From Candidatus Planktophila sp. (GTDB lineage: Bacteria; Actinomycetota; Actinomycetes; Nanopelagicales; Nanopelagicaceae), in the NCBI GenBank assembly GCA_044353885.1, contig JBILBC010000001.1:2544-66543 (forward strand): a DNA stretch of 64,000 nucleotides. The letters are read 5' to 3'. Positions 34,647 to 58,890 of this stretch are shown here, one piece after another; positions within the stretch are counted from its first letter, which is position 1, and the number at the start of each line of letters is the position of its first letter. The notes below the pieces were generated by a model. That model did no database searches. It saw nothing but the letters and a program-made list of their open reading frames with translations, and was not told the origin of the DNA. A program made the position numbers and the translations under genes.

Positions 34647-37415
34647 ATGGCAAAAACCTTAAAGACGCTGGTGATTGTTGAGTCCCCTGCGAAAGCACGC
34701 AAAATTGGCGGCTACCTCGGCGATGGTTACATCGTCGAGGCTAGCGTTGGCCATATTCGTGATCTGCCACAGAGAGCAGCTGATATCCCTAAAGAGGTGA
34801 AGAAGCTCGCCTGGTCTAAAGAGGGCGTCGATATTGAAAATGATTTCGCACCTTTATATGTCATCAACCCAGATAAGCGGGCGAAAGTTGCTGAGCTCAA
34901 AGAGTTGATGAAGGGCGCTGATGAGATCCTTCTTGCAACGGATGAGGACCGCGAAGGTGAAGCAATCGCTTGGCACTTAGTTGAAGTACTACAACCAAAG
35001 ATTCCTATTAAGCGCATGGTCTTTAATGAGATTACAGAAGATGCCATCAAGGCAGCGGTTGAAAACACACGAGATCTTGATTACAACCTCATTGATGCAC
35101 AAGAGACTCGTCGCGTATTAGACAGACTCTTTGGTTACCGTCTGTCACCGGTACTGTGGAAGAAAGTAATGCCACGAATTTCAGCAGGGCGCGTGCAATC
35201 TGTTGCAACGCGTCTCATTGTTGAAAAAGAACGCGAACGCATGGCCTTTATCTCATCCTCTTGGTGGGATTTGAATGCAAAGACAGATCTTGGCTTTACC
35301 GCGCGCTTATTGTCAGTAGATGGCAAGAAAGTAGCCTCCACTGCGGACTTTGGAGCAGATGGGGCAGTTAAAGAGAAGTCCCTCAAAGACATCTTGTTAT
35401 TAGATGAAAAACAAGCAAGAGCGCTTACTGAGAGTTTAAAGAACACACCACTAACTGTGAAGTCGATGGAGGAATCCCCTCGCACAGAGCGTCCAAAGCC
35501 ACCTTTTACAACGTCCACAATGCAGCAAGATGCTGGTTCAAGACTTGGGTGGGGCGCGCAGATCACGATGCGTATTGCACAGCGCCTCTATGAAAACGGT
35601 TACATCACCTATATGCGTACTGACTCCATCAACTTATCTGAGCAGGCAATCAAGGCAGCGCGCCAAGCAGCATCTTCCCTCTATGGAAAAGATCATGTCT
35701 ATGAGAGTGCACGTGTTTACCAAGGAAAGTCAAAGAATGCGCAAGAAGCACATGAAGCAATTCGCCCAGCAGGAGATGTCTTTAAGACTCCAGGTGAGTT
35801 AGCGCCAGAGCTCTCTCGAGATGAGTTCGCACTCTTTGACCTCATCTGGAAGCGCACCGTTGCTTCCCAAATGGCTGATGCCAAGAAGATGCAGATGCGC
35901 GTGGACTTTGATGCAAAGACTGCAGATAAGAAAGAGACAATCTTTCGTGCTAACGGTTCTGTGATTATCTTCCCAGGATTCTTGGCCGCCTACGATGACA
36001 TTGCAACGGATGAGAATAAAGATGAAGAATCTGAGGATCGACGATTGCCTGCAATGACTATCGGTCAATCAGTAAAGGTTGATGAGTACTCATGCGAAGG
36101 CCATGAGACTAAGCCTCCTGCGCGCTATACCGAACCAACCCTTGTTAAGAAGTTAGAAGAGCTCGGTATCGGTCGCCCATCAACATTTGCATCCATCATT
36201 CAAACGATTCAAGATCGTGGTTATGTTTCAAAGCGCGGGCGCGCACTAGTTCCAACCTTCCTGGCATTTTCAGTAACAGGCTTACTTGAAACCCACTTCA
36301 CCAAGCTTGTGGACTATGACTTCACAGCATCGATGGAAGAGGACTTAGACAAGATTGCAGCGGGGGAAGCTGGACGTGTCGATTGGCTCCGTGATTTCTA
36401 CTACGGCGTTGATGGTCAACCAGGGCTAAACGAACTATCTCTTGACCTCGGTGTGATTGATGCGAGAGCCACAAACACAATGAATTTATCTGACACGATT
36501 GAAATTCGTGTTGGTCGCTACGGTGCGTACTTACAAGAGAACTTACCGGATGTAGATCGCAAGCTTGCAAATATCCCTGAAGGTTTGGCACCGGATGAGT
36601 TAACACTTGCAAAGGCGATCGAACTACTTGCTGCCCCATCAGGGGAACGCGAACTCGGAGTGGATCCCAAGACAAACTTTGAAGTTGTTGCAAAGTCAGG
36701 ACGCTTTGGTCCATACATCACTGAGATCTTTCCTGAAGAGCCAGTTGAACTCAATGACAAGGGCGAGGTAAAGAAGAAGCGCAAGAAGAAAGATGCACCG
36801 AAGCCAAAGACGGCATCGCTTCTGTCCACAATGAACCTGGATACCATCACACTCGATGATGCACTTCAACTTCTTTCACTACCTCGCTTACTTGGTACCA
36901 ACACTGCAGGAGATGACATCACCGTGCAGAACGGTCGCTATGGTCCCTATCTCAAAGCTGGCGCTGATTCACGCACACTCACATCTGAAGATCAACTCTT
37001 CTCCATCAATCTTGATGAAGCACTTGAGATTTACTCAAAGCCAAAGGAGCGCCGCCGCGGTGTTGCAAAGCCACCACTGAAAGAACTGGGCGCAGATCCT
37101 GGAACTGAAAAACAAGTCATTATTAAGGATGGACGTTTTGGTATGTATGTCACCGATGGTGAAACCAATGCAACGCTTCGTCGTGGTGACACATTAGAGG
37201 CAATGACTCTTGAGCGCGGTCTTGAACTCCTTGCAGGACGCCGTGCGTGGGAGGCCGAGAACGGCCCATCTCCTAAGAAATCACGTAAGAAGGCTGCAAA
37301 GGCAAAGCCGGGCGATACTGCGCCAACTCTGACAAAGAACACAGTGAAGAAGGCTGCAACAAAGAAGAAGGCAGCCAAGAAGGCGTCAGGAAAAGCAAAG
37401 AAGAGCGCAGAGTAG
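34647..37415 (+). CDS. topA: DNA topoisomerase I (actinobacterial type with C-terminal repeats and Lys-rich tail)
   Basis: IVESPAKA, LATDEDREGE, SAGRVQS, ITYMRTDS, AHEAIRP; repeated GRYGPY-like units. Confidence 0.98.
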   Translation: MAKTLKTLVIVESPAKARKIGGYLGDGYIVEASVGHIRDLPQRAADIPKEVKKLAWSKEGVDIENDFAPLYVINPDKRAKVAELKELMKGADEILLATDEDREGEAIAWHLVEVLQPKIPIKRMVFNEITEDAIKAAVENTRDLDYNLIDAQETRRVLDRLFGYRLSPVLWKKVMPRISAGRVQSVATRLIVEKERERMAFISSSWWDLNAKTDLGFTARLLSVDGKKVASTADFGADGAVKEKSLKDILLLDEKQARALTESLKNTPLTVKSMEESPRTERPKPPFTTSTMQQDAGSRLGWGAQITMRIAQRLYENGYITYMRTDSINLSEQAIKAARQAASSLYGKDHVYESARVYQGKSKNAQEAHEAIRPAGDVFKTPGELAPELSRDEFALFDLIWKRTVASQMADAKKMQMRVDFDAKTADKKETIFRANGSVIIFPGFLAAYDDIATDENKDEESEDRRLPAMTIGQSVKVDEYSCEGHETKPPARYTEPTLVKKLEELGIGRPSTFASIIQTIQDRGYVSKRGRALVPTFLAFSVTGLLETHFTKLVDYDFTASMEEDLDKIAAGEAGRVDWLRDFYYGVDGQPGLNELSLDLGVIDARATNTMNLSDTIEIRVGRYGAYLQENLPDVDRKLANIPEGLAPDELTLAKAIELLAAPSGERELGVDPKTNFEVVAKSGRFGPYITEIFPEEPVELNDKGEVKKKRKKKDAPKPKTASLLSTMNLDTITLDDALQLLSLPRLLGTNTAGDDITVQNGRYGPYLKAGADSRTLTSEDQLFSINLDEALEIYSKPKERRRGVAKPPLKELGADPGTEKQVIIKDGRFGMYVTDGETNATLRRGDTLEAMTLERGLELLAGRRAWEAENGPSPKKSRKKAAKAKPGDTAPTLTKNTVKKAATKKKAAKKASGKAKKSAE

Positions 37416-37427
37416 ACTCATCACATG
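37413..37427 (+). repeat. Left copy of an imperfect 15-bp direct repeat bounding glycan island 1
   Basis: TAGACTCATCACATG, starting at the topA stop codon; 13/15 identical to 45260-45274. Confidence 0.55.
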
Positions 37428-37443
37428 AAAACGGGGAGTATCA

Positions 37444-38427
37444 ATGTCAGTATTTAAAGACTCGGCAATCTTGATTACTGGAGGCACGGGCTCCCTCGGC
37501 AAAGCCCTGATTGAAGAACTACTCGCCAACTCTGGGGCGCGCAAGATTGCTATTTTCAGTCGAGACGAACTAAAACAACTACAGCTGAAGAATCACTTTA
37601 ACAACGATTCGAGGCTCCGATGGTTCCTTGGAGACATTAGAGATCAACAACGCCTATCAAGAGCAATGCACGGAATTGATTATGTAATTCATGCAGCAGC
37701 ACTCAAACAGGTGGACACCGGTGAATACAACCCAATGGAATTCATCAAAACTAACGTCCTTGGAAGCCAAAATGTGATTGAGGCATCTATCGATGCGAAA
37801 GTGAAGAAAGTGGTCGCTCTTTCGACCGATAAAGCATCATCACCAATTAACCTTTATGGGGCAACCAAATTGACTGCTGACAAATTATTTGTTGCAGCAA
37901 ACAACTACAGCCAAGGGTATGGCACAAGTTTCGCAGTAGTTAGATATGGAAATGTGATGGGAAGTCGCGGCTCTGTAATTCCATATTTTCAAGATTTAGT
38001 TGCTGAAGAAAAACCACTCCCAATTACTGACATCCGCATGACTAGATTTTGGATTAGCCTCGCAGACGCCGTAAAATTCGTACTAGATTCTTTTTCAATC
38101 ATGCAAGGCGGCGAGCTTTATGTACCACGCATCCCAAGTATGAAAATTGTAGATCTCGCACGCGCAATTGGGCCCAAGTCAGAATTAGTTGAAATAGGTA
38201 CTCGCCCGGGTGAAAAGTTACATGAAGAAATGATTTCGGCTGAAGACAGCCCTCGAACAAAACTCATTGACGGAAGTCGTTACGTTGTGTTACCCGTCGT
38301 CGCAGAATGGAACTTTAAAGAGCCTGCAGGTGAATCTCTCCCTGAACGCTTCGCCTACGCCTCAGATACAAATAGCCAGTGGATGACGGTCTCCGATATT
38401 CAGAAATTCATTGCCTCTAATCAGTGA
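37444..38427 (+). CDS. pseB: UDP-N-acetylglucosamine 4,6-dehydratase (inverting), PseB family
   Basis: ITGGTGSLG, HAAALKQV, STDKASSPINLYGATK, VRYGNVMGSRGSV, RPGEKLHE. Confidence 0.92.
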   Translation: MSVFKDSAILITGGTGSLGKALIEELLANSGARKIAIFSRDELKQLQLKNHFNNDSRLRWFLGDIRDQQRLSRAMHGIDYVIHAAALKQVDTGEYNPMEFIKTNVLGSQNVIEASIDAKVKKVVALSTDKASSPINLYGATKLTADKLFVAANNYSQGYGTSFAVVRYGNVMGSRGSVIPYFQDLVAEEKPLPITDIRMTRFWISLADAVKFVLDSFSIMQGGELYVPRIPSMKIVDLARAIGPKSELVEIGTRPGEKLHEEMISAEDSPRTKLIDGSRYVVLPVVAEWNFKEPAGESLPERFAYASDTNSQWMTVSDIQKFIASNQ

Positions 38428-38428
38428 A

Positions 38429-39322
38429 ATGAAAAATGACAAGGTTCTTGTACTCGGAGCAACTGGATTTTTAGGTAGCTATTTTCAAGAGGCATTAGGG
38501 AATCTCGGGATAGGTCATACATCGAGGAACGATAATCCGACAGGAAGAGAATCCGACCAATATATTTCATCGAAACTTGAAACAAAAAATGATGTTGAGA
38601 GACTTCTTGATTCTGTCAACGTCTCCAAAGTTATCAATTGCATTGCATTGAGTGACATTGATCAATGCGAACAAAATCCACAAGCAGCAAGTTGGCTGAA
38701 CACAGAGTTACCGCTGGCCTTATCTAAGAAATGCAAAAGTATTGGGGCCCAATTTATCCATATTTCAACTGATGCAGTGTTTTCAGGTGAGGAGCAGCTA
38801 GCAAAAGAGACAAGTGAGCCCAAGCCAAAATCTGTATACGGGCTCACGAAGTATCTAGGCGAAACAGCTGTATGCAAAGAAGATTCAAGCTCCCTAATTT
38901 GTAGAGTTAATTTTGTGGGATGGAACCCAAGAGGAAAATCGCTTTTTAATTTCTTTTACACAAATCTAAAGGCAAATACTACAGTAACTGGGTTTCAGGA
39001 TATTTTTTTTACACCAATGTATGCAGCGGATACAGTTGCTGCAATCCTGAATCTAGCTATTAGAGGTCAATCAGGTTTATTTCACATCGCCGGAAGTGAA
39101 AGAATTTCTAAATTTGAATTTGGGAGACTTGTGGCAGAGAGAATGAATATGGATCAGTCACTCATCCGAGGAGGCTCCTTCCAAGATTCCCAGTTTGCTG
39201 CCACCCGTACCCCAGACTTAAGTCTTTCAAATGTTAAGATTAAATCTCTTGGGATCGAAATTCCAACTTTAGCCAATGGAATCGAAAGACTCGTGAAGGA
39301 AGTGGAAAGCAAGAATGCCTAA
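38429..39322 (+). CDS. RmlD-like NAD(P)H-dependent 4-keto-sugar-nucleotide reductase
   Basis: VLGATGFLG, HISTDAVFSG, YGLTK, FTPMY, GLFHIAG. ATG 38429 preferred over TTG 38411. Confidence 0.85.
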   Translation: MKNDKVLVLGATGFLGSYFQEALGNLGIGHTSRNDNPTGRESDQYISSKLETKNDVERLLDSVNVSKVINCIALSDIDQCEQNPQAASWLNTELPLALSKKCKSIGAQFIHISTDAVFSGEEQLAKETSEPKPKSVYGLTKYLGETAVCKEDSSSLICRVNFVGWNPRGKSLFNFFYTNLKANTTVTGFQDIFFTPMYAADTVAAILNLAIRGQSGLFHIAGSERISKFEFGRLVAERMNMDQSLIRGGSFQDSQFAATRTPDLSLSNVKIKSLGIEIPTLANGIERLVKEVESKNA

Positions 39323-40385
39323 ACTCAATTTAGATTTCCAAACTTCTGTAAATTCGCCGACCTATTTCATTGCAGATATCGCGGCGAATCATGATGGTTC
39401 CCTGGAGCGGGCTCTCGAGCTCATCAAACTAGCGGCCCAAGCAGGGGCAGATGCGGCTAAGTTTCAGAACTTTAAGGCCGAGACCATAGTCTCGTCCCAA
39501 GGGTTTAAAGATCTTGGGAAGAAAATGACCCATCAAGCGAAATGGGAAAAAGATGTCGTTGAAGTTTATAAAGACGCTGAATTACCGATGGAATGGACTG
39601 AAGCGCTAGTTAATGCCTGTAAAGAGAACAATATTGATTATTTCACTGCTCCTTACGACCTGAAATTTATTCCTTACTTTGCGAACACAATGCCATATTT
39701 CAAGGTTGGTTCCGGTGACATAACCTGGAAAGAGTCTCTTGAATTGATGGCTAGGCAAGGGAAGCCAATTCTTCTTGCAACTGGTGCCAGCGAATTTTGG
39801 GAAGTAGAAAGAGCCGTCCAGTTGATTTCGAAATTTGATGTGCCGATAGTGCTAATGCAATGCAACACGAACTACACCGGCAACGAAGACAACTTTGACC
39901 ATCTAAACCTGCTCGCTCTCAACGAGTTCAAGGATAAATTTCCTCAAGTGATTTTAGGTTTATCAGACCATTCGGTAGGACATGTAGCAGTCCTTGGAGC
40001 TGTGGCACTGGGAGCTCGGGCGATAGAGAAACACTTTACGGATGACACGCAAAGACCTGGCCCAGATCATGGCTTTTCACTTGATCCAATTACCTGGAAA
40101 AAGATGGTTGAAGAGACTCGAATCCTTGAGAGATGTCTTGGAAGTGGACACAAACGAGTTGAGGAGAATGAACTAGAGGCCCGCATTGTGCAACGAAGAG
40201 CCTTGCGGTTTAGTCGAGACATAAAAGCTGGCGAGGTAGTCAATTCAGATGATTTAGTCGCACTTCGACCCTGTCCTATTGACGGTATCGACCCATTTGA
40301 GAAAGAAAATTATGTTGGAAAATCTTTGAATCAAGCTGTTGTGAGAGATCAACTTGCAAGGAAGTCAGATTTTGGCGGCCACTGA
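39315..40385 (+). CDS. Nonulosonic acid synthase (NeuB/PseI/SpsE family) with C-terminal SAF domain
   Basis: IAANHDG, ADAAKFQ, GLSDH, IEKHFT, GPDH, RRAL...DIKAGE. Confidence 0.92.
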   Translation: MPKLNLDFQTSVNSPTYFIADIAANHDGSLERALELIKLAAQAGADAAKFQNFKAETIVSSQGFKDLGKKMTHQAKWEKDVVEVYKDAELPMEWTEALVNACKENNIDYFTAPYDLKFIPYFANTMPYFKVGSGDITWKESLELMARQGKPILLATGASEFWEVERAVQLISKFDVPIVLMQCNTNYTGNEDNFDHLNLLALNEFKDKFPQVILGLSDHSVGHVAVLGAVALGARAIEKHFTDDTQRPGPDHGFSLDPITWKKMVEETRILERCLGSGHKRVEENELEARIVQRRALRFSRDIKAGEVVNSDDLVALRPCPIDGIDPFEKENYVGKSLNQAVVRDQLARKSDFGGH

Positions 40386-41355
40386 AGCCCTCTATATATC
40401 CAAATCTAAATCAACTCACGATGATCGATTTGTCGAAGCTTTGCGCGAGGTTTTAGAACTGAGAGAAATATACCTAGATAAACCCACCTCGAATCAAGCT
40501 GAATTGATTACAGGTGAGCAAAATCTAATTATCGCAAGCCCACTTTCCACAGGAATAAACAGCATTCCTCAGTCCTCGAATGCCACGATTATAGGCATCT
40601 GTATGGCTTACGAGATAAATGAAGAAGCCAAGGAAAAAAATAAGTTCGATGAGATTTACGAGAACATCAATAGGTGTTCTGCCATTGTATGCGATTGCGA
40701 TTACATTGAAAATGAACTTAGAGGTAGGTTTGCATTTGCAGGCGAGATATTGAAAATCGCCTATGGGTGCGACCAGGAAATTTTTCAGAGCGTCCCTTTT
40801 GAAAATCAGGAAAAATTGCGAATAATCTCGACTCGAAATTGGACACCGATACATTCAAATACAACAAGTATTGAAGCTCTCCGAGAACTCCAAGAGGGCA
40901 CCCTAAAATTTGAAGCTAAGTTTTATGGGGTAGGTATCGAATTTACACAAGAACTTAGAGAAAGCGTGAGTTCAGAATTCTCCGACAAAATTCAATTTCT
41001 AGGTAGATTTGTTCAAGAAGATCTTCCAAGTGCCTTCTCGAAATCAGAGATCTATCTTTCTGCCTCCATTAGCGATGGAACTTCAGTGTCTTTATTGGAA
41101 GCAATGGCAGCTGGGCGTTTATGTATCTGTAGAGATTTTCCATCCAACCGAGAATGGATAAAGAACGGAGTAAACGGATTTCTTTTTACAACACCAAGCG
41201 ACCTGGCAGAGATCTTGACTTCAATTTCCCAGCTCTCATTCGAGGAGAAGTCGCTTATCTCAAATGCTTCAAGAGAGTCAGTTCTTACCCGTGGGAATTG
41301 GGAAATCATGAGAACTAACTTAATCAATTTCATTAAAAACTGGATTAAACAATGA
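40354..41355 (+). CDS. GT4-like glycosyltransferase (GT-B fold)
   Basis: SISDGTSVSLLEAMAAG, NGVNGFLF; N-terminal domain atypical; start uncertain. Confidence 0.75.
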   Translation: MQGSQILAATEALYISKSKSTHDDRFVEALREVLELREIYLDKPTSNQAELITGEQNLIIASPLSTGINSIPQSSNATIIGICMAYEINEEAKEKNKFDEIYENINRCSAIVCDCDYIENELRGRFAFAGEILKIAYGCDQEIFQSVPFENQEKLRIISTRNWTPIHSNTTSIEALRELQEGTLKFEAKFYGVGIEFTQELRESVSSEFSDKIQFLGRFVQEDLPSAFSKSEIYLSASISDGTSVSLLEAMAAGRLCICRDFPSNREWIKNGVNGFLFTTPSDLAEILTSISQLSFEEKSLISNASRESVLTRGNWEIMRTNLINFIKNWIKQ

Positions 41356-42197
41356 GACTACTTGTTTTAGGTTGCGCCCAATTTGGCAAGGGGTATGGGT
41401 TCTACGTGAAGACACCACAAATAAGCAGCGGGGAACTTAGCAAGATTTTAGAATTTGCAGCCTCAAATGATGTAAATGAATTGGATTTAGCTCAAAATTA
41501 CGAAGGGGTTGTCGAAAATCTTGCAGAACAAAGTTCCATCGGCGCATTCCAACTAGGGACAAAAATCAAATACAGTCAGTCAAGCGAACTGGAAATTACC
41601 AATCTATTACGCACTAATCTAAAGGCGTTTGGCGTGGGCTACTTTGAAAGCATTCTTATTCATAACTGGGCACAACTCAACAAGGCGGAAAGAAATCAAG
41701 CGCTTGCGTATCTTTCAAATCTACGAACTGAAGGGATAACAAGAAGCATTGGAATATCTGTTTACGAAACCAAGGAACTTCTTGAATTAGATGCGAAAAT
41801 TGATATCGTGCAGGCGCCCTTAAGTTATTTCAACACAAAATTCCTACACGATGAGAATGCTGTTCAACTAAAAAATCAAGGCGTCATATTTGTTGCGCGA
41901 AGCATTTTCCATCAAGGGACATTACTGAATCCCGACGCTCTACCAACAGAATTCACTGCATTTATAGATGAGTTTGAGGATTTTTGTGCAAGACATAATT
42001 ATTCACACTTGCAGGCGGCGCTTTCTGTCTTCGATACACAATCAGTGTTTTCGAAATTGGTGATAGGAGTAGCGGAATGCAACCAATTTGAACAAATTGT
42101 TAAATGTGAATTTGAAGCCCCTAAATCTCTTCAAGCGGAAATCCCATTGCACTTCCCTGATCAGTTATCAGATCCTAGACAATGGGTTGCTAAATGA
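41352..42197 (+). CDS. Aldo/keto reductase
   Basis: LGCAQFG; catalytic-tetrad-like D(LAQN)Y, TK, LIH; SIGISVY, Q.PLS. Confidence 0.88.
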   Translation: MRLLVLGCAQFGKGYGFYVKTPQISSGELSKILEFAASNDVNELDLAQNYEGVVENLAEQSSIGAFQLGTKIKYSQSSELEITNLLRTNLKAFGVGYFESILIHNWAQLNKAERNQALAYLSNLRTEGITRSIGISVYETKELLELDAKIDIVQAPLSYFNTKFLHDENAVQLKNQGVIFVARSIFHQGTLLNPDALPTEFTAFIDEFEDFCARHNYSHLQAALSVFDTQSVFSKLVIGVAECNQFEQIVKCEFEAPKSLQAEIPLHFPDQLSDPRQWVAK

Positions 42198-42955
42198 AAT
42201 TAGCTATATTGCAGGCTCGCATGTCCTCTACTCGCCTGCCTGGAAAAGTCTTACAAGAAATCAATGGGATGCCGATGATTCATTGGCAACTAAAAAGGAT
42301 TTCAAAGGCAAAGTCTTTGAGCGAAGTTGTCGTGGCGACATCGACAGATATTTCTGACGACCCCTTAGTAGAGTTTCTATCTTCCCAAAAAGTATCTTTT
42401 GTTAGAGGTTCTTTGGATAATGTGAAAGAACGTTTTGATCTAGTATTAGACAAGTTCCCCTCACAGTCGTTTATTCGCTTAACCGGCGACTGCCCTCTGG
42501 TTATGCCAGACCTCATTGATGACTTAGTTCATTCTTTCGACGAAGCTGAAGTTGATTACCTTTCAAATACGATTGACCCGACCTATCCGGATGGGCTAGA
42601 TATCGAGGTTGTCGCGACTAAGGCTTTCAATCAACTCGGGATTGGCGGTTTATCTAGAGCTGAAATGGAGCATGTCACTTACGGCCTGTATTCGAGAGTT
42701 GGCCAGTTCCGAATTCAAAACTTTGCCAACTCCGAAGATTTGAGCCACCTAAGGTGGACTGTTGACTACGAAGAGGATCTTGATTTTGTGCGGCAGGTAT
42801 TTGCACACTTCAAAGGCCGAGAAACCTCTTTTACGTACCCTGAACTCCTAAATTACTTGATAGATAATCCTGAGCTCAAGAGTAGAATCGACGGCAGCAG
42901 GCGCAATGAATCCCTCACCTCAATGCTAAAGGAAGGAGATTCTCTCAATGAGTAG
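42194..42955 (+). CDS. SpsF-like cytidylyltransferase (CTP_transf_3 family)
   Basis: ILQARMSSTRLPGKVL, RGSLDNV..RF, RLTGDCPL, YPDGLDIEV, EHVT, RWTVDYEED. Confidence 0.87.
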   Translation: MKLAILQARMSSTRLPGKVLQEINGMPMIHWQLKRISKAKSLSEVVVATSTDISDDPLVEFLSSQKVSFVRGSLDNVKERFDLVLDKFPSQSFIRLTGDCPLVMPDLIDDLVHSFDEAEVDYLSNTIDPTYPDGLDIEVVATKAFNQLGIGGLSRAEMEHVTYGLYSRVGQFRIQNFANSEDLSHLRWTVDYEEDLDFVRQVFAHFKGRETSFTYPELLNYLIDNPELKSRIDGSRRNESLTSMLKEGDSLNE

Positions 42956-44234
42956 ATACTCTAAATCTGAAAAACAGCTGTTAGCAGCAGAGGCAGTTAT
43001 TCCTTTAGGTTCGCAAACTTTTAGTAAGTCCAGAACTCAGTACCCAGTCGGAATTTCCCCCCTGTTTGCAAAAAAAGCAAAAGGTTCACGGATTCAAGAC
43101 CTCGATGGCAATTGGTATGTAGATCTAGTAAATAGTCTTGCTGCCATCACGATTGGATACGGGGATAGAGAGATAGCCAAAGCTGTTAGAGGGCAACTTT
43201 CCAATGGAATCATTTTTTCACTTCCAGGTACGCTGGAAGAAGAAGTTGCATCTTTGATTGTGGAACTTGTTCCATCTGCAGAGTCGGTTCGGTTTGGAAA
43301 GAATGGGACTGATGCGACATCCGCAGCCGTCAGGCTGTCACGTGCCTATACCGGCCGGGACTTAATTGCCGTCTGTGGTTATCACGGCTGGCAAGACTGG
43401 TACATCGGATCAACCTCACGCGATAAAGGCGTCCCAGATTTAACAAAATCTTTAACAAAAAGCTTCAAATTCAACGATATCTCCAGCCTGAAACAACTAA
43501 TTTCAGAATTTCCACAACAATTTGCTGCTGTTGTTATGGAACCGATGAATCTTAATTACCCCGCTGAAAATTTCTTAGGAGACGTACGAAGAATTTGTAA
43601 CGAAAACGGAATAGTGCTCGTTTTTGACGAAACAATTACTGGATTTAGATTTTCTAGAGGGGGCGCCCAAGAGCTATTTGGAGTTACACCCGACCTGTCT
43701 ACTTTTGGGAAAGGGTTAGCAAACGGCTATCCACTTTCCGCGATTGTAGGTAAGAAAGAAATTATGAAGGAGATGGAGGAAATTTTCTTTTCAGGCACTT
43801 TTGGTGGAGAGCTCCTTTCTCTTGCTGCGGCAAAGGTGGTGCTTGAGAGGCACAAGAGTCAAAATGTCTCATCTGAACTTGATTCCATTGGTAAAAACCT
43901 TAAAGAAAAGGTCGAAGAAATTATTCGGGAATGTGACCTTGAAAATGTTCTCGGCCTTTCAGGACATCCAAGCTGGGTATTCTTAAATTGGTCAGCAGTC
44001 GGAGACTATTCGGTTGAAGAAATAAAGACGTTCTTTATGCAAGAAATGTTCAAGCGTGGAGTCCTTATTCTAAATACCCACAACATCTCACTTGCATTTA
44101 GTAAAAAGGATTTAAAAGTTGTGCTAAAAGCTTATTCTGAAACCTTGCATGCTCTTTCGGAAGCCATTAATTTGCAGAATTTACGTGAAAGACTAGAGGT
44201 TAAGCCTTTGATACCTTTATTTAAGGTTCGGTAA
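42948..44234 (+). CDS. Class III PLP aminotransferase (glutamate-1-semialdehyde aminomutase-like)
   Basis: VRFGKNGTDAT, GYHGWQDW, VFDETITGFR, PLP Lys in STFGKGLANG, SGTFGG. Confidence 0.9.
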   Translation: MSRYSKSEKQLLAAEAVIPLGSQTFSKSRTQYPVGISPLFAKKAKGSRIQDLDGNWYVDLVNSLAAITIGYGDREIAKAVRGQLSNGIIFSLPGTLEEEVASLIVELVPSAESVRFGKNGTDATSAAVRLSRAYTGRDLIAVCGYHGWQDWYIGSTSRDKGVPDLTKSLTKSFKFNDISSLKQLISEFPQQFAAVVMEPMNLNYPAENFLGDVRRICNENGIVLVFDETITGFRFSRGGAQELFGVTPDLSTFGKGLANGYPLSAIVGKKEIMKEMEEIFFSGTFGGELLSLAAAKVVLERHKSQNVSSELDSIGKNLKEKVEEIIRECDLENVLGLSGHPSWVFLNWSAVGDYSVEEIKTFFMQEMFKRGVLILNTHNISLAFSKKDLKVVLKAYSETLHALSEAINLQNLRERLEVKPLIPLFKVR

Positions 44235-44261
44235 GTAACTTAAAGGCACTAGAATTCACAC

Positions 44262-45230
44262 ATGACCCAAGAGACGTGGCTACTTACAGGCGGTGCTGGA
44301 TATATCGGCACACATATTGCCGATGAGTTCATCCGCGCAGGCAAGTCAGTTGTTATCTATGACTCGCTCTATCAGGGCCTTGAATCCCGCATCGTCTATC
44401 TACGTGCTAAGCACAAGGTAGAGATCCCATTTATCAAGGGCGATATCCGCGATTACAACGAACTTGAAAGCGTAATCCGCACCCACAAAATTGATGGCAT
44501 CGTCCACACCGCAGCCCTTAAGGCTGTCGGTGAATCAATGGAGAAGTCAGATGAGTATTTCCAAGTAAATTTAGAGGCAACAACAGAACTGATTGCCATT
44601 GCAAAGCGCAACAATGTAAAGAAATTTATCTTCTCATCAACCGCTGCTGTCTATGGCAGTCCAGATTCAATGGATCCTTGCAAAGAGGATGGACCAAAGG
44701 CTCCAATCTCTCCTTATGGGGATTCTAAGTACCAAGCAGAGTCGGCGGTTACGGCATTTATCAATACAGCCGGTAACCATGGAACATCACTGCGTTTCTT
44801 CAACGTTGTAGGAGCTGCTGCCCCAGAACTACTTGATAACTCAGTGGAGAACTTAGTTCCTATTGTTCTTGGCAAGCTCAATAAAGGTGAAGCACCAACA
44901 ATCTTCGGTACCGATTACCCAACACCTGATGGCACATGTGTCCGTGACTACGTTGATGTTCGCGATATCGCCCGAGCACATCTGGCTGTAGCAGATGCCA
45001 CAACAAAATTGCCTGAGACCATGAATATCGGCACAGGGCGTGGTGCATCAGTGCGAGAGATCATCAAGCTTGTATTGGATGCAACTAAGAAGAGCGATAC
45101 CAAGGTCATTGAGGTAGAGCGCCGTGCAGGAGATCCAGCATTCTTGTGTGCGGATGTAACCCTGGCAAAGAGCGCCATGGGCTTTGAATCTAAGTACTCA
45201 TTGGAAGCCAGCGTCAGAAGCCTCTTTTAG
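44262..45230 (+). CDS. galE: UDP-glucose 4-epimerase
   Basis: TGGAGYIGTH, ALKAVGES, SSTAAVYG, YGDSK, GTDYPTPDGTCVRDY, RRAGD. Confidence 0.92.
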   Translation: MTQETWLLTGGAGYIGTHIADEFIRAGKSVVIYDSLYQGLESRIVYLRAKHKVEIPFIKGDIRDYNELESVIRTHKIDGIVHTAALKAVGESMEKSDEYFQVNLEATTELIAIAKRNNVKKFIFSSTAAVYGSPDSMDPCKEDGPKAPISPYGDSKYQAESAVTAFINTAGNHGTSLRFFNVVGAAAPELLDNSVENLVPIVLGKLNKGEAPTIFGTDYPTPDGTCVRDYVDVRDIARAHLAVADATTKLPETMNIGTGRGASVREIIKLVLDATKKSDTKVIEVERRAGDPAFLCADVTLAKSAMGFESKYSLEASVRSLF

Positions 45231-45259: not shown

Positions 45260-45274
45260 TAGACTCAACCCATG
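45260..45274 (+). repeat. Right copy of the imperfect direct repeat (also the -10 element and ATG of MFS-tmk)
   Basis: TAGACTCAACCCATG, 13/15 identical to 37413-37427. Confidence 0.55.
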
Positions 45275-47410
45275 CCTGCAAGCCTGCCAACCCCTGCTGC
45301 ACCCGCACAGGATGCACGCCGCAGCGTCCTTGCTATCCCAGCCTTTCGCAAGCTCTGGAACTCCATGCTCTTCTCATCCCTTGGTGATTGGCTAGGCCTT
45401 CTTGCAACTACGGCGCTCGCACAGCAACTCTCTGGTGGCTCCTATGCAACTGCAAACTTTGCAATCGCTGGTGTCTTTATTGCACGCCTTCTACCTGCAG
45501 TCTTTCTAGGTCCTATTGCTGGTGTGATCGCAGATCGCTTTGATCGCAGGCGTTTGATGGTCTCAGTAGATGTGATGAGAGCTGGGCTCTATATATCTAT
45601 TCCAATCGTTCACACATATTTCTGGCTCTATACAGCGATGATCTTGGTTGAGTGCCTCACTCTCTTCTGGTCACCGGCTAAAGAGGCATCAGTTCCTAAT
45701 CTTGTCCCAAGGGACAAGTTAGAGAACGCAAATCAAGTCTCACTTCTAGCTGCCTATGGCACAGCGCCTATCGCTGCAATCTTGTTCTCACTGCTCACAC
45801 TTCTCTCAGGAGCAATTGCAGCAGTGAGTCCACTGCTGCCAAGTAACTCTGTCGATATTGCCCTCTATATCAACGCACTCTCATTCCTCTTTGCTGCTTG
45901 GACCATTAGGGGTCTTAAAGAGATACCAAAGGGTGCTGCGTCTAAATCTCATAAAGATGAGAACGTTGGACAATCACTGATTCAGGGGTGGAAAACTGTC
46001 TCTGAATCAAAAATCATCCGAGGATTGATTATCGGTATGGTCGGTGCATTCTCAGCAGCAGGTGCTGTTATTGGCCTTGCTCGCACATTTGTAGGAGACC
46101 TCGGTGGAGGAGATGCTGCATACGGTGTTCTCTTCGGTTCAGTCTTTACGGGACTTGCAATCGGTATTGCATTTGGCCCCAAGATATTTGCGCAGTTCTC
46201 ACGCCGGCGTCTATTTGGTGCTTCCCTTACAACGTCAGGTGTATTCCTAGTCCTGCTTGCACTGATCTCTAACTTAGTTCTCTCTGTTGTCATCGTTGCA
46301 ATTCTTGGAGCCTTTAGCGGAATTGCTTGGGTTACAGGCTTCACCATGCTTGGTATGGAGGTCCATGATGATGTGCGTGGGCGTACCTTTGCCTTCGTGC
46401 AATCACTGATCCGAATTACTTTGGTGGCTGTCCTTGCTATTGCACCCATCATCGCTGCGACAATCGGTGTGCACAGCTATGAATTTGAAAACATTAAGCT
46501 CAACTACAACGGAGCACAGATCACCATGCTCCTTGCAGGTCTTATTGCAGCTCTCATTGGCTCTATCTCTTATCACCAGATGAAAGATCGCCCCACAGTC
46601 TCTCTATGGTCTGACATCTTGGCTGCGATACAAGGTGAGCTAGGTAGCATCACAGGGGCTCCCACACAAGGAATCTTCATCGCATTTGAAGGTGGCGAAG
46701 GAACAGGCAAGTCAACACAATCTAAGTTGTTACAAAAATGGTTAGAGCAAGAAGGTGAGAGTGTTGTTCTCTCACGAGAACCCGGTGGCACAGACCTCGG
46801 AAAAGATTTAAGGAAGATTCTTCTAGGACATGAGACAGGTGCGATATCACCAAGAGCTGAAGCACTTCTCTATGCAGCAGATCGTGCGCACCACGTCTTC
46901 TCAGTTATTCGCCCAGGACTAGCGGAAGGCAAAGTAGTTATCTCTGATCGCTACTTTGATTCATCTGCTGCCTACCAAGGCGCAGGTCGCGTACTTAATC
47001 CATCAGAGGTTGCACGTATCTCACGATGGGCAACGGAGAGTTTGTATCCAACTCTGACAATCCTTATCGATGTTCCTGCAGAGGTGGGCTTAAGTCGACT
47101 TCAATCACGCGATCGCTTAGAGGCAGAACCAACAGAATTCCACGAACGAGTACGTCAAGAGTTTTTGCAAATTGCCATGATGGATCCAGAGCGCTACTTC
47201 GTTGTCGATGGCACACAATCAGTTGAAGAAATCCACACACAAATCATCGCTCGAGTGGCAGAGCTTCCAGCGCTGAAGCGCAATGCAGAAGGACCACAAC
47301 AGAATAAGTTCCTTAAACCAATTCGCATTGCAACACATGCAGTGACAACAACAGTTACAAGAGCGGCAAAGGCAAGCAAGTCAGCGACAACAAAGAAGAA
47401 AAAGAAGTAA
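45272..47410 (+). CDS. tmk: Fused MFS transporter / thymidylate kinase
   Basis: N-terminal ~430 aa MFS (GVIADRFDRRR) in one frame with dTMP kinase motifs FEGGEGTGKST, REPGGT, DRY, DRLE. Confidence 0.93.
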   Translation: MPASLPTPAAPAQDARRSVLAIPAFRKLWNSMLFSSLGDWLGLLATTALAQQLSGGSYATANFAIAGVFIARLLPAVFLGPIAGVIADRFDRRRLMVSVDVMRAGLYISIPIVHTYFWLYTAMILVECLTLFWSPAKEASVPNLVPRDKLENANQVSLLAAYGTAPIAAILFSLLTLLSGAIAAVSPLLPSNSVDIALYINALSFLFAAWTIRGLKEIPKGAASKSHKDENVGQSLIQGWKTVSESKIIRGLIIGMVGAFSAAGAVIGLARTFVGDLGGGDAAYGVLFGSVFTGLAIGIAFGPKIFAQFSRRRLFGASLTTSGVFLVLLALISNLVLSVVIVAILGAFSGIAWVTGFTMLGMEVHDDVRGRTFAFVQSLIRITLVAVLAIAPIIAATIGVHSYEFENIKLNYNGAQITMLLAGLIAALIGSISYHQMKDRPTVSLWSDILAAIQGELGSITGAPTQGIFIAFEGGEGTGKSTQSKLLQKWLEQEGESVVLSREPGGTDLGKDLRKILLGHETGAISPRAEALLYAADRAHHVFSVIRPGLAEGKVVISDRYFDSSAAYQGAGRVLNPSEVARISRWATESLYPTLTILIDVPAEVGLSRLQSRDRLEAEPTEFHERVRQEFLQIAMMDPERYFVVDGTQSVEEIHTQIIARVAELPALKRNAEGPQQNKFLKPIRIATHAVTTTVTRAAKASKSATTKKKKK

Positions 47411-49422: not shown

Positions 49423-50736
49423 CTAGGAGTTCCTAATTTTCGGATTCGTGAGCAAGTTAACTGAAACATAGAGTAGAGCGAGAGCTAAACATGTAGTGAC
49501 CACTGGGGCGATAGAGAGTCTAATTGTGAAAACAGTCGTTAAAGTCAACGCCAAAAGTATCTTCCCAATTTTCCTGTCTTGATATTGGTGCTTAGACAAA
49601 ATGATCACAATTGGAACCAGGGCTACCAGTCGATAGGCGAAACTATCTCCCACTAACCAGATAACAAAAAAGTTTAACGAATAGGCAGCAAGAATCTTAG
49701 AATCACTCCGATTGATATCTGCAAAAGATTCAAAATCAACAACCTTTAAGTTCCTGAAGACAACATATGACATAGTCAATAGAAAAAGTAGGAGAAATAA
49801 GAGTATTGATATCTTGGACTCAGATAAAATCCACAATTTAAACCCAAAAGAATTCCCAAATAAGGATCCAGCCTGCGTACTTTTAATCATTGCAAAAGCT
49901 TCCGAAGAGTTACTCAACCAATAAAATATTGGTGCACTTAATAGTAATTTCTCAAATTTTGATATCTGACTCCGGAATAGCACCAGTAAGACATAAATGA
50001 CAAATGTCGGCCACAATTTAAATGCACTCGCCATGAACAACAGGAGTATCCCCAGTAAGCGAAACTGAAAATTCTTACCTAGAAGCAATTGGAACCCCAA
50101 CACTAACAGCGAAATTGTCAATAGCTCATTTCCACGTTCTATCGCTAACAATATCGAAGGGGAAGAAACAAACAGGAGAATAGGTATACGGCTTGTTGAA
50201 TTTTGCTTCAAACTAACGGCTAGTATACAAATAAATAGGAGAAAGAAGAAGATCCCAACCAGGGGCAAGTTTGTTAAATTCAGAATGCGGAAGACATTAA
50301 CAACATCGGTATTCTGGTTAAGCAATCGTAGCCACGGATCACAGACAACTTTCCCGACTTCAATCGGCACTTGGCAATTAGCGGCAGCCGTAACTTGCGC
50401 TAGATCTCCGAGCGGGTATACCTTTCCATCGAGAGTCATAGACCCCGCGGTTAACTTGCTCCATAAATAATAGGGCTTTTCAATCTGATATAAATAGAGC
50501 AGGCTAATTGGAGCTAAGTACGAGATTATTGGAATAACAAACCAGATTTCTTCCCAGCGAATACTAGGTTTATTGAACCCAGATGAAATGGCATAAAAAG
50601 CAAATACAAAAACCATCAACAGCAGAAAGGATAGACAAATTCCCAAAACCGTCTCACTTGACTGGAAGTGAGGAAAAACGAGAGAGATAGCCCAGATAAT
50701 GGCCAATGCAATCCACCCAGTTCGAACCTGTGTCAT
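49423..50736 (-). CDS. Polytopic membrane protein, GT-C / GT87 (DUF2029)-like
   Basis: About 10 TM segments; SPSILLAIERGN and AFKLWP resemble the GN/GQ and KxxP motifs of GT87-like proteins. Weak family call. Confidence 0.5.
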   Translation of the reverse strand: MTQVRTGWIALAIIWAISLVFPHFQSSETVLGICLSFLLLMVFVFAFYAISSGFNKPSIRWEEIWFVIPIISYLAPISLLYLYQIEKPYYLWSKLTAGSMTLDGKVYPLGDLAQVTAAANCQVPIEVGKVVCDPWLRLLNQNTDVVNVFRILNLTNLPLVGIFFFLLFICILAVSLKQNSTSRIPILLFVSSPSILLAIERGNELLTISLLVLGFQLLLGKNFQFRLLGILLLFMASAFKLWPTFVIYVLLVLFRSQISKFEKLLLSAPIFYWLSNSSEAFAMIKSTQAGSLFGNSFGFKLWILSESKISILLFLLLFLLTMSYVVFRNLKVVDFESFADINRSDSKILAAYSLNFFVIWLVGDSFAYRLVALVPIVIILSKHQYQDRKIGKILLALTLTTVFTIRLSIAPVVTTCLALALLYVSVNLLTNPKIRNS

Positions 50737-50854
50737 CCCGTAATCCTATAGAAGCTAGAATTTCGGACACATTAATCGAAGACTTTTAGGTAGGAATTTT
50801 CTCTGGAGTAGGCGTAGATGCGCAAGTCAATTTTTTTAGTTGATACAATCAGGG

Positions 50855-54125: not shown

Positions 54126-54567
54126 TGGAGTAGTACTTACCCCTCTCAAGCAAATTTTCGACGAGAGGGGGAAGGTTATGCACATGCTTGATGTAAATTC
54201 TTCAACTTTTTCCAGTTTTGGAGAAATCTATTTCTCATGCACCTATCCGGGCGTTGTCAAAGCCTGGCATTTACACAAAGAAATGACACTCAACTATGCG
54301 GTTATTCAAGGAGAAATAAAGATTGTACTTTTTGATGATCGACCTACAAGCCCAACGCGAGGACAAGTAGAGGAGATATTTGTTTCACCAGAGAATTACA
54401 TGCTTGTCACAGTGCCTCCAAAAGTTTGGAATGGTTTTAAATGCGTAGGCTTAGAAACGGCGATTGTTGCGAACTGCGCAACAATCCCGCATGACCCTTC
54501 AGAGATTTCTCGGCTGGAGCCGACGGATTCCTCAATCCCGTATTCGTGGGATCTTAAGCATCGTTGA
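54106..54567 (+). CDS. RmlC-like cupin sugar-nucleotide epimerase
   Basis: DERG, VKAWHLH, VPPKVWNGF, HDP. Confidence 0.85.
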   Translation: MEAQVIDGVVLTPLKQIFDERGKVMHMLDVNSSTFSSFGEIYFSCTYPGVVKAWHLHKEMTLNYAVIQGEIKIVLFDDRPTSPTRGQVEEIFVSPENYMLVTVPPKVWNGFKCVGLETAIVANCATIPHDPSEISRLEPTDSSIPYSWDLKHR

Positions 54568-54588
54568 AATTAAGGGAAAGAGGCTAAC

Positions 54589-58813: not shown

Positions 58814-58890
58814 GTCTTAATCCTATATCGCAACTTGGACAAAGCGTTGAATATGGTTGCGGATCCATTCTTCTCATGTATCTTTCAATC

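What the first reader, a model, noticed from the sequence alone, without database searches (positions are those of the whole stretch)
37444..44234. Non-canonical nonulosonic-acid pathway: PseB and NeuB, but a 4-ketoreductase instead of PseC/PseH
Seen: a tightly coupled operon pseB - RmlD-like reductase - NeuB - GT4 - AKR - SpsF-like cytidylyltransferase - class III aminotransferase. There is no DegT-family aminotransferase (PseC), N-acetyltransferase (PseH), PseG or typical NeuA/PseF. Established: PseB makes a UDP-4-keto-6-deoxy-L-HexNAc. Inference: reducing C4 instead of aminating it, followed by PEP condensation, would give a 9-deoxy-7-hydroxy nonulosonate (fusaminic-acid-like) rather than pseudaminic acid, possibly modified further. 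This is a candidate undescribed sialic-acid-like pathway.
Basis: partly seen in the sequence, partly recalled or inferred. Interest (0 to 1): 0.8.

Follow-up and report, generated by a model that had tools for sequence, protein, structure and literature searches.

The report
Reductase-type sialic-acid-like sugar operon
A seven-gene mobile operon in a tiny freshwater actinobacterium most likely makes a sialic-acid-like nine-carbon surface sugar by reducing, not aminating, a key intermediate, a route not described in the literature I could search, and adds a widespread untested enzyme pair that probably tailors the sugar further.

Summary
Seven overlapping + strand genes at 37444-44234 encode PseB, an RmlD-like reductase, a NeuB-family synthase, a short GT4-like protein, an aldo-keto reductase (AKR), an SpsF-type cytidylyltransferase (CT) and a class III aminotransferase (AT3).

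This genome and a complete sister genome with the same operon have no PseC, PseH, PseG, PseF or NeuC.

The core PseB-reductase-NeuB-GT4-CT recurs colinearly in about 80 Chloroflexota and other genomes, with almost no aminotransferase nearby. Its synthase forms its own clade and fails both the PseI and NeuB models.

Sister freshwater genomes carry PseG-PseB-PseC-PseH-PseI in front of the same AKR-CT-AT3 trio. So PseC+PseH are swapped for the reductase, PseG for the GT4-like protein, and PseI for the new synthase.

The best reading is a CMP-activated 7-hydroxy-9-deoxy (fusaminic-type) nonulosonic acid. AKR and AT3 probably tailor it further, perhaps converting a hydroxyl to an amine.

No chemistry was done, and the papers I could search assign no genes to this sugar class. 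I rate it a new variant of a known kind of pathway. Earlier notes of this scan report the core and the trio separately in other genomes. New here are their fusion in one operon and the natural swap.

The parts
37444..38427 (+). [quoted passage not shown]
   Evidence: TIGR03589 462.7 bits, cut-off 407.75. The best solved relative is H. pylori FlaA1/PseB 2gn4 at 340.7 bits, against 225.5 for Pen 6bwc. T128-D129-K130 and Y138xxxK142 match the PseB fingerprint given in PMC8987622. It is 73% identical to the PseB of a classic PseC/PseH/PseI locus.
38429..39322 (+). RmlD-like SDR: proposed C4 ketoreductase acting on the PseB product
   Evidence: PF04321 1.8e-47. TIGR01214 rmlD scores 145 bits, below its cut-off of 224. 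G10xxG13xxG16, S113/T114, Y137 and K141 are invariant among homologues. The best solved relatives are dTDP-4-dehydrorhamnose reductases, and no Pal-like hit appears. It lies directly after PseB in 59 of 72 evaluable genome loci.
39315..40385 (+). NeuB-family nonulosonate synthase of a separate clade (NeuB*)
   Evidence: PF03102 4.2e-66. It falls below both equivalog cut-offs: NeuB 264.3 against 399.65, PseI 227.5 against 340.25. It is 50-78% identical to the synthases that follow the reductase elsewhere, but only 28-34% identical to the true PseI of PseC-type loci. Clade-invariant residues are D21, D27, Q182, N184, T185, N186, T188 and H252. The metal-ligand histidines H219 and H240 are kept.
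40354..41355 (+). Short GT4-like GT-B protein: proposed UDP-sugar hydrolase (PseG counterpart); the start codon is uncertain
   Evidence: PF00534 1e-17. AF2 model pLDDT 95.5. The top Foldseek hits are retaining GT4 enzymes with UDP-GlcNAc donors (BshA, SdgB, MshA), and PseG is not in the top 50. The family has an invariant His15 with a consensus Asp next to it in the beta1-alpha1 loop, and D-X7-E in place of E-X7-E. It sits after NeuB* in 41 of 55 evaluable loci. It occupies the pathway slot that a PseG-like gene fills in PseC-type sister loci.
41352..42197 (+). Aldo-keto reductase, first gene of the AKR-CT-AT3 trio
   Evidence: PF00248 1.2e-15. Asp45, Tyr50 and Lys71 are invariant among five trio AKRs. 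The fourth tetrad residue, His, is present in four of the five (Trp in L019). There is no solved relative at E<=0.001. The same AKR-CT-AT3 order occurs in L011, L013, L019, L100, L101 and G031.
42194..42955 (+). SpsF-type cytidylyltransferase: proposed CMP-nonulosonate synthetase
   Evidence: PF02348 6.2e-28, and the only CTP_transf_3 in the genome. The best solved relative is the 'cytidylyltransferase' 6oew at 1.7e-27. In the same cassette elsewhere, this slot holds either an SpsF-type CT (Anaerolineae) or a true PseF (L017 and L082; L017 scores TIGR03584 252.7 against 205.7). B. subtilis spsF is needed for display of legionaminic acid (PMC7439481).
42948..44234 (+). Class III (GSA-aminomutase-like) aminotransferase: proposed tailoring transaminase
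   Evidence: PF00202 3.2e-48. NF004856 scores 374 bits, below its cut-off of 486. A lysine stands in the TFGKG motif, where I expect the PLP Schiff-base lysine from memory of GSA aminomutases. More than 7,900 relatives score E<=1e-40. It is 57-65% identical to the AT3 of loci that also carry PseC (all), PseH and a PseG-like gene (L011, L101) and a true PseI.
37413..37428 (+). Left island border: a copy of the GalE leader plus ATG (TAGACTCATCACATGA) that overlaps the topA stop codon
   Evidence: Sequence read. Island-free G007 has GTAGACTCCACTCATGA directly in front of galE.
44248..44264 (+). Right island border: the second copy of the leader (TAGAATTCACACATGAC), running into the galE start
   Evidence: Sequence printed; compare the G007 empty site in the same call.

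Best explanation
The seven genes form a mobile operon that makes a CMP-activated nonulosonic acid of the 7-hydroxy-9-deoxy (fusaminic) type. The proposed steps are:

1. PseB converts UDP-GlcNAc to UDP-2-acetamido-2,6-dideoxy-beta-L-arabino-hex-4-ulose. The enzyme assignment is shown by family membership and motifs.
2. The RmlD-like SDR reduces C4 with NAD(P)H to a UDP-6-deoxy-L-HexNAc, most likely 6-deoxy-L-AltNAc. This is inferred from synteny and from the absence of any PseC or PseH.
3. The short GT4-like protein releases UDP and so takes the role of PseG. This is inferred from the gene swap in sister loci.
4. The NeuB* synthase condenses the free sugar with PEP to a 5-acetamido-3,5,9-trideoxy-non-2-ulosonic acid (inferred).
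5. The SpsF-type CT makes the CMP-sugar (inferred).
6. AKR and the class III aminotransferase tailor the acid, before or after activation. The likeliest chemistry is oxidation of a hydroxyl followed by transamination. The target should be a position shared by pseudaminic-type and fusaminic-type acids, so C8 rather than C7. This step is speculative, at about 0.3.

The sugar is then presumably added to a surface glycan encoded in the neighbouring variable region.
For: Families and coupling.

No canonical partners:
- None in the own genome.
- None in the complete sister genome G017.

Cassette conservation in 80 genome loci, mostly Anaerolineae plus Pontimonas:
- PseB lies upstream in 59 of 72 evaluable loci.
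- NeuB* lies downstream in 69 of 72.
- All five genes are present in 38 of 55.
- A DegT is present in 1 of 55, and AKR or AT3 in 0 of 55.

NeuB* is a separate clade:
- It fails the PseI and NeuB cut-offs in the window, L017, L069, L082 and L100.
- Synthases next to PseC pass the PseI cut-off at 374-466 bits.
- Clade-specific invariant residues surround intact metal ligands.

Other points:
- L017 adds PseF, HisH, HisF and WbuX, which fits an acetamidino derivative. From memory of the 2017 structure paper, the F. nucleatum 25586 residue carries that group.
- Natural swap in sister loci: PseG-like, PseB, PseC, PseH and PseI stand in front of AKR-CT-AT3 in L011 and L101. PseB, Red, NeuB* and GT4 stand in front of the same trio here and in G017, G031 and L100.
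- The CT slot holds either a PseF-type or an SpsF-type enzyme.
- PseB is closest to FlaA1, not Pen, and the reductase has no Pal-like relative.
- Chemical precedent: Fus equals Pse with a 7-OH and inverted C4, and it was reported from the F. nucleatum O-antigen in the same paper as 6-deoxy-L-AltNAc (PMC9912281).
- An 8-amino nonulosonic acid exists in Flexibacter maritimus (PMC3210612).
- Lake metatranscriptome contigs match six of the seven genes or their junctions.
Against: - No enzyme here or in any orthologue has been assayed, and no sugar has been measured.
- The GT4-like fold matches transferases, not PseG, so the hydrolase role rests on position and the swap only.
- A 35% relative of the reductase sits in a locus (L019) with PseC, PseF and a true PseI, so the reductase does not always replace amination.
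- I could not test whether F. nucleatum ATCC 25586 carries this gene set.
- The stereochemistry at C4 of the hexose and C4 of the acid is unknown.
- The roles of AKR and AT3 are guesses. Metatranscriptome contigs did not cover AKR or CT, and such libraries can carry DNA.
Confidence: 0.6

Rival explanations
1. There are two separate products. PseB, the reductase and the GT4 make UDP-6-deoxy-L-HexNAc and transfer it directly to a glycan. NeuB* and the CT make a different ulosonic acid, for example a Kdn-like one, from an unrelated free sugar.
For: The GT4-like model resembles retaining transferases that use UDP-GlcNAc, such as BshA, MshA and SdgB. 6-deoxy-L-AltNAc is itself a glycan residue in F. 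nucleatum. In L019 a reductase relative sits beside a complete PseC/PseI/PseF set.
Against: NeuB* follows PseB-reductase in 69 of 72 loci across phyla and forms a clade of its own tied to them. The genome has no NeuC-type epimerase or any other evident source of a free N-acetylhexosamine. In sister loci the GT4 slot corresponds to a PseG-like gene.
Confidence: 0.12
2. The class III aminotransferase stands in for PseC. It would aminate the 4-keto sugar, or a 7-keto acid made with the AKR. The product would then be a diamino, pseudaminic-like acid with a free 7-amine.
For: An aminotransferase and an oxidoreductase are in the operon.
Against: AT3 orthologues at 57-65% identity sit in loci that already have PseC and a true PseI (L011, L101 and L019; L011 and L101 also have PseH). 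The cassette works without any aminotransferase in L017 and in 54 of 55 evaluable genome loci, mostly Anaerolineae. The AT3 of reductase-type G031 (59%) is more distant than those of PseC-type loci (65%), so AT3 does not track the front end. This reading leaves the reductase without a role.
Confidence: 0.1
3. PseB-like plus the SDR act as a Pen/Pal-type pair that together only make the 4-keto sugar. The pathway would then be incomplete or completed by unknown genes.
For: B. thuringiensis uses two SDR enzymes for this step (PMC7439481 and PMC8987622).
Against: The window's PseB scores 340.7 bits to FlaA1 against 225.5 to Pen. It is 73% identical to a PseB that works with PseC alone. No Pal-like structure is among the reductase's solved relatives, which are RmlD enzymes.
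Confidence: 0.05

Closest known systems
CMP-pseudaminic acid pathway (PseB, PseC, PseH, PseG, PseI, PseF) of Campylobacter and Helicobacter
   Same: The first enzyme is the same (PseB above its equivalog cut-off). The logic is the same: modify a UDP-6-deoxy-L-hexosamine, remove UDP, condense with PEP through a NeuB-family enzyme, then activate with CTP.
   Different: There is no PseC, PseH, PseG or PseF. An RmlD-like reductase stands where amination plus acetylation would be. A GT4-like protein stands where PseG would be. The synthase fails the PseI model (227.5 against 340.25). The CT is SpsF-type.
Fusaminic acid and 6-deoxy-L-AltNAc of the Fusobacterium nucleatum ATCC 25586 O-antigen (chemistry only; PMC9912281)
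   Same: The predicted intermediate (the PseB product reduced at C4) and the predicted product class (5-amino-3,5,9-trideoxy acid with a 7-OH) match these two sugars. The relative L017 also encodes acetamidino-forming enzymes.
   Different: The papers I could search give no genes for these sugars, and I could not examine that genome. The window's operon has no amidotransferase but has AKR and AT3, so its end product should differ.
Aeromonas group I polar-flagellin glycosylation islands (pseB-pseC-AKR-pseF-class III aminotransferase-...; PMC7874193)
   Same: The same AKR, SpsF-type CT and class III aminotransferase trio sits next to a NeuB-family synthase.
   Different: There the trio accompanies PseC and PseI (diamino acids). 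Here it accompanies the reductase and NeuB*. The trio is untested in both.
RmlD, dTDP-4-dehydrorhamnose reductase
   Same: Same domain family (PF04321), catalytic Ser/Thr-Tyr-Lys and cofactor loop. Both reduce C4 of an L-configured 6-deoxy-4-keto nucleotide sugar.
   Different: It scores below the rmlD equivalog cut-off (145 against 224). The predicted substrate is a UDP-2-acetamido sugar, not a dTDP sugar, and the gene neighbours are pseB and neuB rather than rmlABC.
Oxidise-then-transaminate pairs such as KdnB/KdnA (Kdo8N) and WbpB/WbpE (recalled from memory, not tested here)
   Same: A dehydrogenase coupled to a PLP aminotransferase turns a sugar hydroxyl into an amine. This is the mechanism I propose for AKR plus AT3.
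   Different: The enzyme families differ (AKR and class III here), and the substrate is unknown.

Membership tests
CMP-pseudaminic acid pathway | [quoted passage not shown] | tested here: met
   TIGR03589 462.7 bits, above the 407.75 cut-off. TDK and YxxxK motifs present. Closest solved relative is FlaA1.
CMP-pseudaminic acid pathway | PseC, DegT-family C4 aminotransferase | tested here: not met
   The best PF01041 hit is 36.9 bits in the own genome and 32.9 bits in the complete genome G017. True DegT genes score about 290-300 bits. tblastn with a PseC from a related freshwater locus finds nothing.
CMP-pseudaminic acid pathway | PseH N-acetyltransferase and PseG UDP-sugar hydrolase | tested here: not met
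   TIGR03590 gives no hit in G000, G017 or G031. tblastn with PseH and PseG-like proteins from related freshwater loci finds nothing in the own genome.
CMP-pseudaminic acid pathway | PseI equivalog synthase and PseF equivalog cytidylyltransferase | tested here: not met
   PseI model 227.5 bits against a cut-off of 340.25. PseF model 23.2 bits against 205.7. Control loci pass: PseI 374-466 bits, PseF 252 bits.
Neu5Ac (NeuC/NeuB/NeuA) or legionaminic acid pathway | Hydrolysing UDP-GlcNAc 2-epimerase, and a NeuB equivalog | tested here: not met
   No PF02350 hit in the genome. The NeuB model scores 264.3 bits against a cut-off of 399.65.
Reductase-type cassette PseB-Red-NeuB*-GT4-CT (uncharacterised; seen in genomes and in earlier notes of this scan) | The five genes are colinear, the synthase belongs to the NeuB* clade, and no DegT lies nearby | tested here: met
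   Gene order in the window. NeuB* is 50-58% identical to the Anaerolineae members and shares their invariant residues. Statistics.
AKR-CT-AT3 trio of pseudaminic-acid loci (Aeromonas group I type) | Adjacent AKR, SpsF-type CT and GSA-like class III aminotransferase beside a NeuB-family gene | tested here: met
   Same order with 4-8 nt overlaps. AT3 is 65% and CT 54-56% identical to those of the PseI loci L011 and L013. Described in PMC7874193.
AKR-CT-AT3 trio of pseudaminic-acid loci (Aeromonas group I type) | Association with PseC and a true PseI | tested here: not met
   Here the trio follows the reductase, NeuB* and GT4 instead.
RmlD (dTDP-4-dehydrorhamnose reductase) | Equivalog score, and an rmlABC context | tested here: not met
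   TIGR01214 scores 145 bits against a cut-off of 224. The neighbours are pseB and neuB. The catalytic triad and GxxGxxG loop are present.
GT4 retaining glycosyltransferases | GT-B fold with a GT4 C-terminal domain and the E-X7-E motif | tested here: inconclusive
   The fold is met: Foldseek probability 1.0 to BshA, MshA and SdgB, TM about 0.8. The motif reads D-X7-E, and the Gly-rich beta1-alpha1 loop is replaced by an invariant His followed by a consensus Asp.
Fusaminic-type nonulosonic acids | Product is a 5-amino-3,5,9-trideoxy-non-2-ulosonic acid with a 7-OH | not testable with these tools
   Needs LC-MS and NMR of enzyme products or cell hydrolysates. The chemistry of the class is described in PMC9912281.

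The most novel reading that the evidence does not exclude
The operon makes a nonulosonic acid not yet seen in nature: a fusaminic-type core (7-OH, 9-deoxy) that AKR and the class III aminotransferase convert to an amino derivative, for example 5-acetamido-8-amino-3,5,8,9-tetradeoxy-nonulosonic acid. UDP release would be carried out by a GT4-family protein acting as a hydrolase, an activity I know of no report of for GT4. Together with the reductase and the NeuB* clade, this would define a fourth general route to bacterial sialic-acid-like sugars, beside the Neu, Leg and Pse routes. It would be carried on a swappable cassette in one of the most abundant groups of freshwater bacteria.
Probability: 0.2. 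Interest if true: 0.8.

Novelty: new variant of a known kind. Interest (0 to 1): 0.62.

Why it matters
- Sialic-acid-like sugars shape how bacteria are seen by phages, grazers and immune systems. Genes are known for only three routes (Neu, Leg, Pse).
- This operon gives a concrete, testable gene set for the 7-hydroxy-9-deoxy (fusaminic) class. In the papers I could search, that class is described only from Fusobacterium nucleatum O-antigens.
- The same core is common in Chloroflexota and occurs in streamlined freshwater actinobacteria.
- The natural swap between sister genomes (PseC/PseH/PseG/PseI against reductase/GT4/NeuB*, in front of the same AKR-CT-AT3 trio) assigns a role to each unknown gene.
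- The swap also shows that the widespread trio does not depend on the C7 substituent. That narrows what the trio can do.
- The island sits in a hypervariable surface-glycan region. It is present in 3 of 36 species of the genus, which fits strain-level surface variation.

Tried and rejected
- **Standard Pse pathway completed elsewhere in the genome:** rejected. There is no DegT, PseG, PseH, PseF or second NeuB in G000, and none of the first two in the complete genome G017.
- **Neu or Leg route:** rejected, because there is no Epimerase_2.
- **Pen/Pal-type two-enzyme dehydration:** weak.
- **GT4-like protein as a remote PseG homologue:** not supported. hhalign of an acI PseG-like protein against the GT4-like family gave probability 1.2%, and Foldseek does not rank PseG in the top 50. 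I keep it only as a functional analogue.
- **GalE as part of the operon:** rejected. It is backbone.
- **Survey with a 17-sequence reductase alignment:** failed for lack of a conserved stretch.
- **Literature:** ten searches found no paper assigning genes to fusaminic acid or testing the AKR-CT-AT3 trio. The Pen/Pal papers themselves were not held.
- **F. nucleatum ATCC 25586 genome:** I could not reach it with the tools left.
- **AKR against solved structures:** no hit.

Full report
**What is there**

The window is contig C10 of a 1.3 Mb, 48% G+C genome in 119 contigs, 90% complete. Close protein relatives are labelled Candidatus Nanopelagicaceae, and the stretch occurs nearly unchanged in many lake-water metagenomes.

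Seven + strand ORFs lie between topA (34647-37415) and galE (44262-45230). Pfam and NCBIfam assign them as follows:

| Gene | Coordinates | Evidence |
|---|---|---|
| PseB | 37444-38427 | TIGR03589 462.7 bits, cut-off 407.75 |
| RmlD-like SDR | 38429-39322 | PF04321 1.8e-47; rmlD equivalog 145, below 224 |
| NeuB family | 39315-40385 | below the NeuB cut-off (264.3 vs 399.65) and the PseI cut-off (227.5 vs 340.25) |
| GT4-like | 40354-41355 | PF00534 1e-17 |
| Aldo-keto reductase (AKR) | 41352-42197 | PF00248 1.2e-15 |
| SpsF-type cytidylyltransferase (CT) | 42194-42955 | PF02348 6.2e-28 |
| Class III aminotransferase (AT3) | 42948-44234 | PF00202 3.2e-48; GSA-aminomutase-like |

The reductase ATG lies one base after the pseB stop, and later junctions overlap by 4-8 nt. 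No + strand terminator-like site lies inside the operon. The genes have 40-45% G+C against 48% for the genome.

**The canonical partners are absent**

- The genome has no true DegT; the best hit is 36.9 bits.
- It has no PseG, no second CTP_transf_3 and no second NeuB.
- It has no UDP-GlcNAc 2-epimerase.
- tblastn with PseC, PseH, PseG-like and PseF proteins from related freshwater loci finds nothing.
- Incompleteness is not the reason. G017, a single-contig, 99% complete genome of the same genus with the same operon, also lacks DegT (best 32.9 bits) and PseG.

**The core is a conserved cassette**

Reductase relatives fetched from species-representative genomes gave 80 loci. Nearly all are Anaerolineae or other Chloroflexota, plus Pontimonas and another Microbacteriaceae. 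I annotated them with the window's proteins:

- PseB lies directly upstream in 59 of 72 evaluable loci.
- A NeuB 50-58% identical to the window's lies downstream in 69 of 72.
- All five of PseB, reductase, NeuB, GT4-like and CT are present in 38 of 55.
- A DegT appears in 1 of 55, and AKR or AT3 in none.

**The synthase is a clade of its own (NeuB\*)**

- In the window, L017, L069, L082 and L100 it fails both equivalog models.
- The synthases beside PseC in L011, L013, L019 and L101 pass the PseI model at 374-466 bits.
- Across 75 NeuB* sequences, D21, D27, Q182, N184, T185, N186, T188 and H252 are invariant or nearly so and differ from PseI. The metal-binding histidines are kept.

**The first two enzymes fit the proposed chemistry**

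- PseB is far closer to H. pylori FlaA1 (340.7 bits) than to Pen (225.5).
- It carries the TDK...YxxxK fingerprint listed for inverting dehydratases.
- It is 73% identical to the PseB of a classic locus.
- The reductase keeps GxxGxxG and Ser/Thr-Tyr-Lys.
- Its solved relatives are RmlD enzymes, which reduce C4 of an L-configured 6-deoxy-4-keto sugar. No Pal-like protein appears among them.

**A natural swap assigns the roles**

Two metagenome loci carry a different front end. L101 has the same tmk-holB-glyoxalase backbone as the window, and L011 is similar. Both read: PseG-like (TIGR03590 71-82 bits over its full length, on the other strand), PseB, PseC, PseH, true PseI, then AKR-CT-AT3.

The window, G017, G031 and L100 read: PseB, reductase, NeuB*, GT4-like, then the same AKR-CT-AT3.

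Three replacements follow:

- PseC plus PseH are replaced by the reductase.
- PseI is replaced by NeuB*.
- PseG is replaced by the GT4-like protein.

Its AF2 model is confident (pLDDT 95.5). The model resembles retaining GT4 enzymes with UDP-GlcNAc donors (BshA, MshA, SdgB), and PseG is not among the top 50 matches. The family replaces the Gly-rich beta1-alpha1 loop with an invariant His followed by a consensus Asp, and reads D-X7-E for E-X7-E. From memory, PseG's catalytic His sits in the same loop. That is a lead, not a test.

**The CT is probably the activating enzyme**

- The same slot holds a true PseF in L017 and Pontimonas (L082) and an SpsF-type CT in Anaerolineae.
- It is the only CT in this genome.
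- B. subtilis spsF is needed for display of legionaminic acid (PMC7439481).

**Link to known chemistry**

Fusaminic acid differs from pseudaminic acid only in the stereochemistry at C4 and in having a hydroxyl instead of an amino group at C7. It was reported from the F. nucleatum O-antigen in the same paper as 6-deoxy-L-AltNAc (PMC9912281). These are the product class and the intermediate that the gene set predicts.

L017 adds PseF, HisH, HisF and a WbuX-type amidotransferase, a set that makes acetamidino groups. From my memory of the 2017 structure paper's title, the residue in strain 25586 is the 5-acetimidoyl form. No paper I could search assigns genes to this sugar.

**The trio**

- AKR-CT-AT3 is widespread. 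AT3 has more than 7,900 relatives at E<=1e-40.
- It occurs in Aeromonas group I flagellin islands (PMC7874193) and in a Legionella serogroup 6 LPS cluster. An AKR-CT fusion occurs in a Vibrio.
- Asp, Tyr and Lys of the AKR catalytic tetrad are invariant among five trio AKRs, and the His is present in four of them. AT3 has a lysine in the TFGKG motif, where I expect the PLP-binding lysine.
- AT3 is 57-65% identical between loci with PseC and loci with the reductase. The reductase-type G031 copy (59%) is more distant than the PseC-type copies at 65%.
- The trio therefore does not track the C7 substituent and is unlikely to replace PseC.
- My best guess is oxidation of a shared hydroxyl followed by transamination. 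An 8-amino nonulosonic acid is known from Flexibacter maritimus (PMC3210612). This step remains speculative.

**Island biology**

- NeuB* and AT3 occur in only 3 of 36 species representatives of the genus.
- Island-free genomes read topA-galE-tmk. The seven genes sit exactly between two copies of the galE leader TAGACTCAnCnCATGA.
- In G031 the same seven genes lie after holB. In L101 the PseC-type set lies after the glyoxalase gene.
- The seven genes therefore behave as a movable cassette within a variable surface-glycan region.
- Freshwater metatranscriptome contigs at 95-100% identity cover the topA/pseB junction, the reductase, the reductase/NeuB junction, NeuB, GT4, AT3 and galE, but not AKR or CT. 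DNA carry-over cannot be excluded.

**Earlier notes of this scan**

Earlier notes report the five-gene core in at least 19 findings and the trio in at least 37. They are unchecked leads and not independent support. My own survey reproduces their main counts. New here are the fusion of both modules in one operon, the front-end swap in sister genomes, and the exact island borders.

**Verdict**

It is a new variant of a known kind of pathway and still needs chemistry.

Noticed in passing
window 37413-37428 and 44248-44264; also 45260-45274: The seven-gene island is bracketed by two copies of a short leader (TAGACTCAnCnCATGA). In island-free relatives this leader directly precedes galE, and a third similar copy precedes the tmk fusion gene. 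It looks like a -10 box placed for leaderless transcripts. The left copy keeps an orphan ATG that overlaps the end of topA.
   Followed up: partly
window 45272-47410: An MFS transporter is fused to thymidylate kinase in one 712-aa ORF. The fusion is conserved in relatives (L009, L101, G031, G007).
   Followed up: no
window 49423-50736 (- strand): A 437-aa protein with about ten hydrophobic segments has no family hit. A 40% identical homologue lies directly after the PseC-type nonulosonate cluster in L101. It could be a polymerase, ligase or GT-C-like enzyme for the glycan.
   Followed up: partly
L011 3752-4708 (-) and L101 2732-3709 (-): These divergent PseG-like genes get no Pfam hit in the precomputed tables. 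They match TIGR03590 over its full length at 71-82 bits, below the cut-off, and keep the GSGH motif. 'PseG-less' pseudaminic loci may simply have unrecognised PseG genes.
   Followed up: partly
L017 9017-16385: A variant of the cassette reads PseB, reductase, NeuB*, GT4-like, true PseF, HisH, HisF, WbuX amidotransferase and a methyltransferase. Among the loci I examined, this one best fits a 5-acetamidino fusaminic-type acid.
   Followed up: partly
L019 6060-14875: One locus holds the AKR-CT-AT3 trio, a reductase relative, PseB, PseC, a formyltransferase, a true PseI and a true PseF. It therefore has two cytidylyltransferases and both the reductase and PseC. It may make two products from one PseB.
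   Followed up: no
window 50840-64000: A second low-G+C block of sugar genes follows: SDRs, an RmlC-like epimerase, a nucleotidyltransferase and several glycosyltransferases. L101 shares part of it. It is probably the glycan assembly region that would use the activated acid.
   Followed up: no
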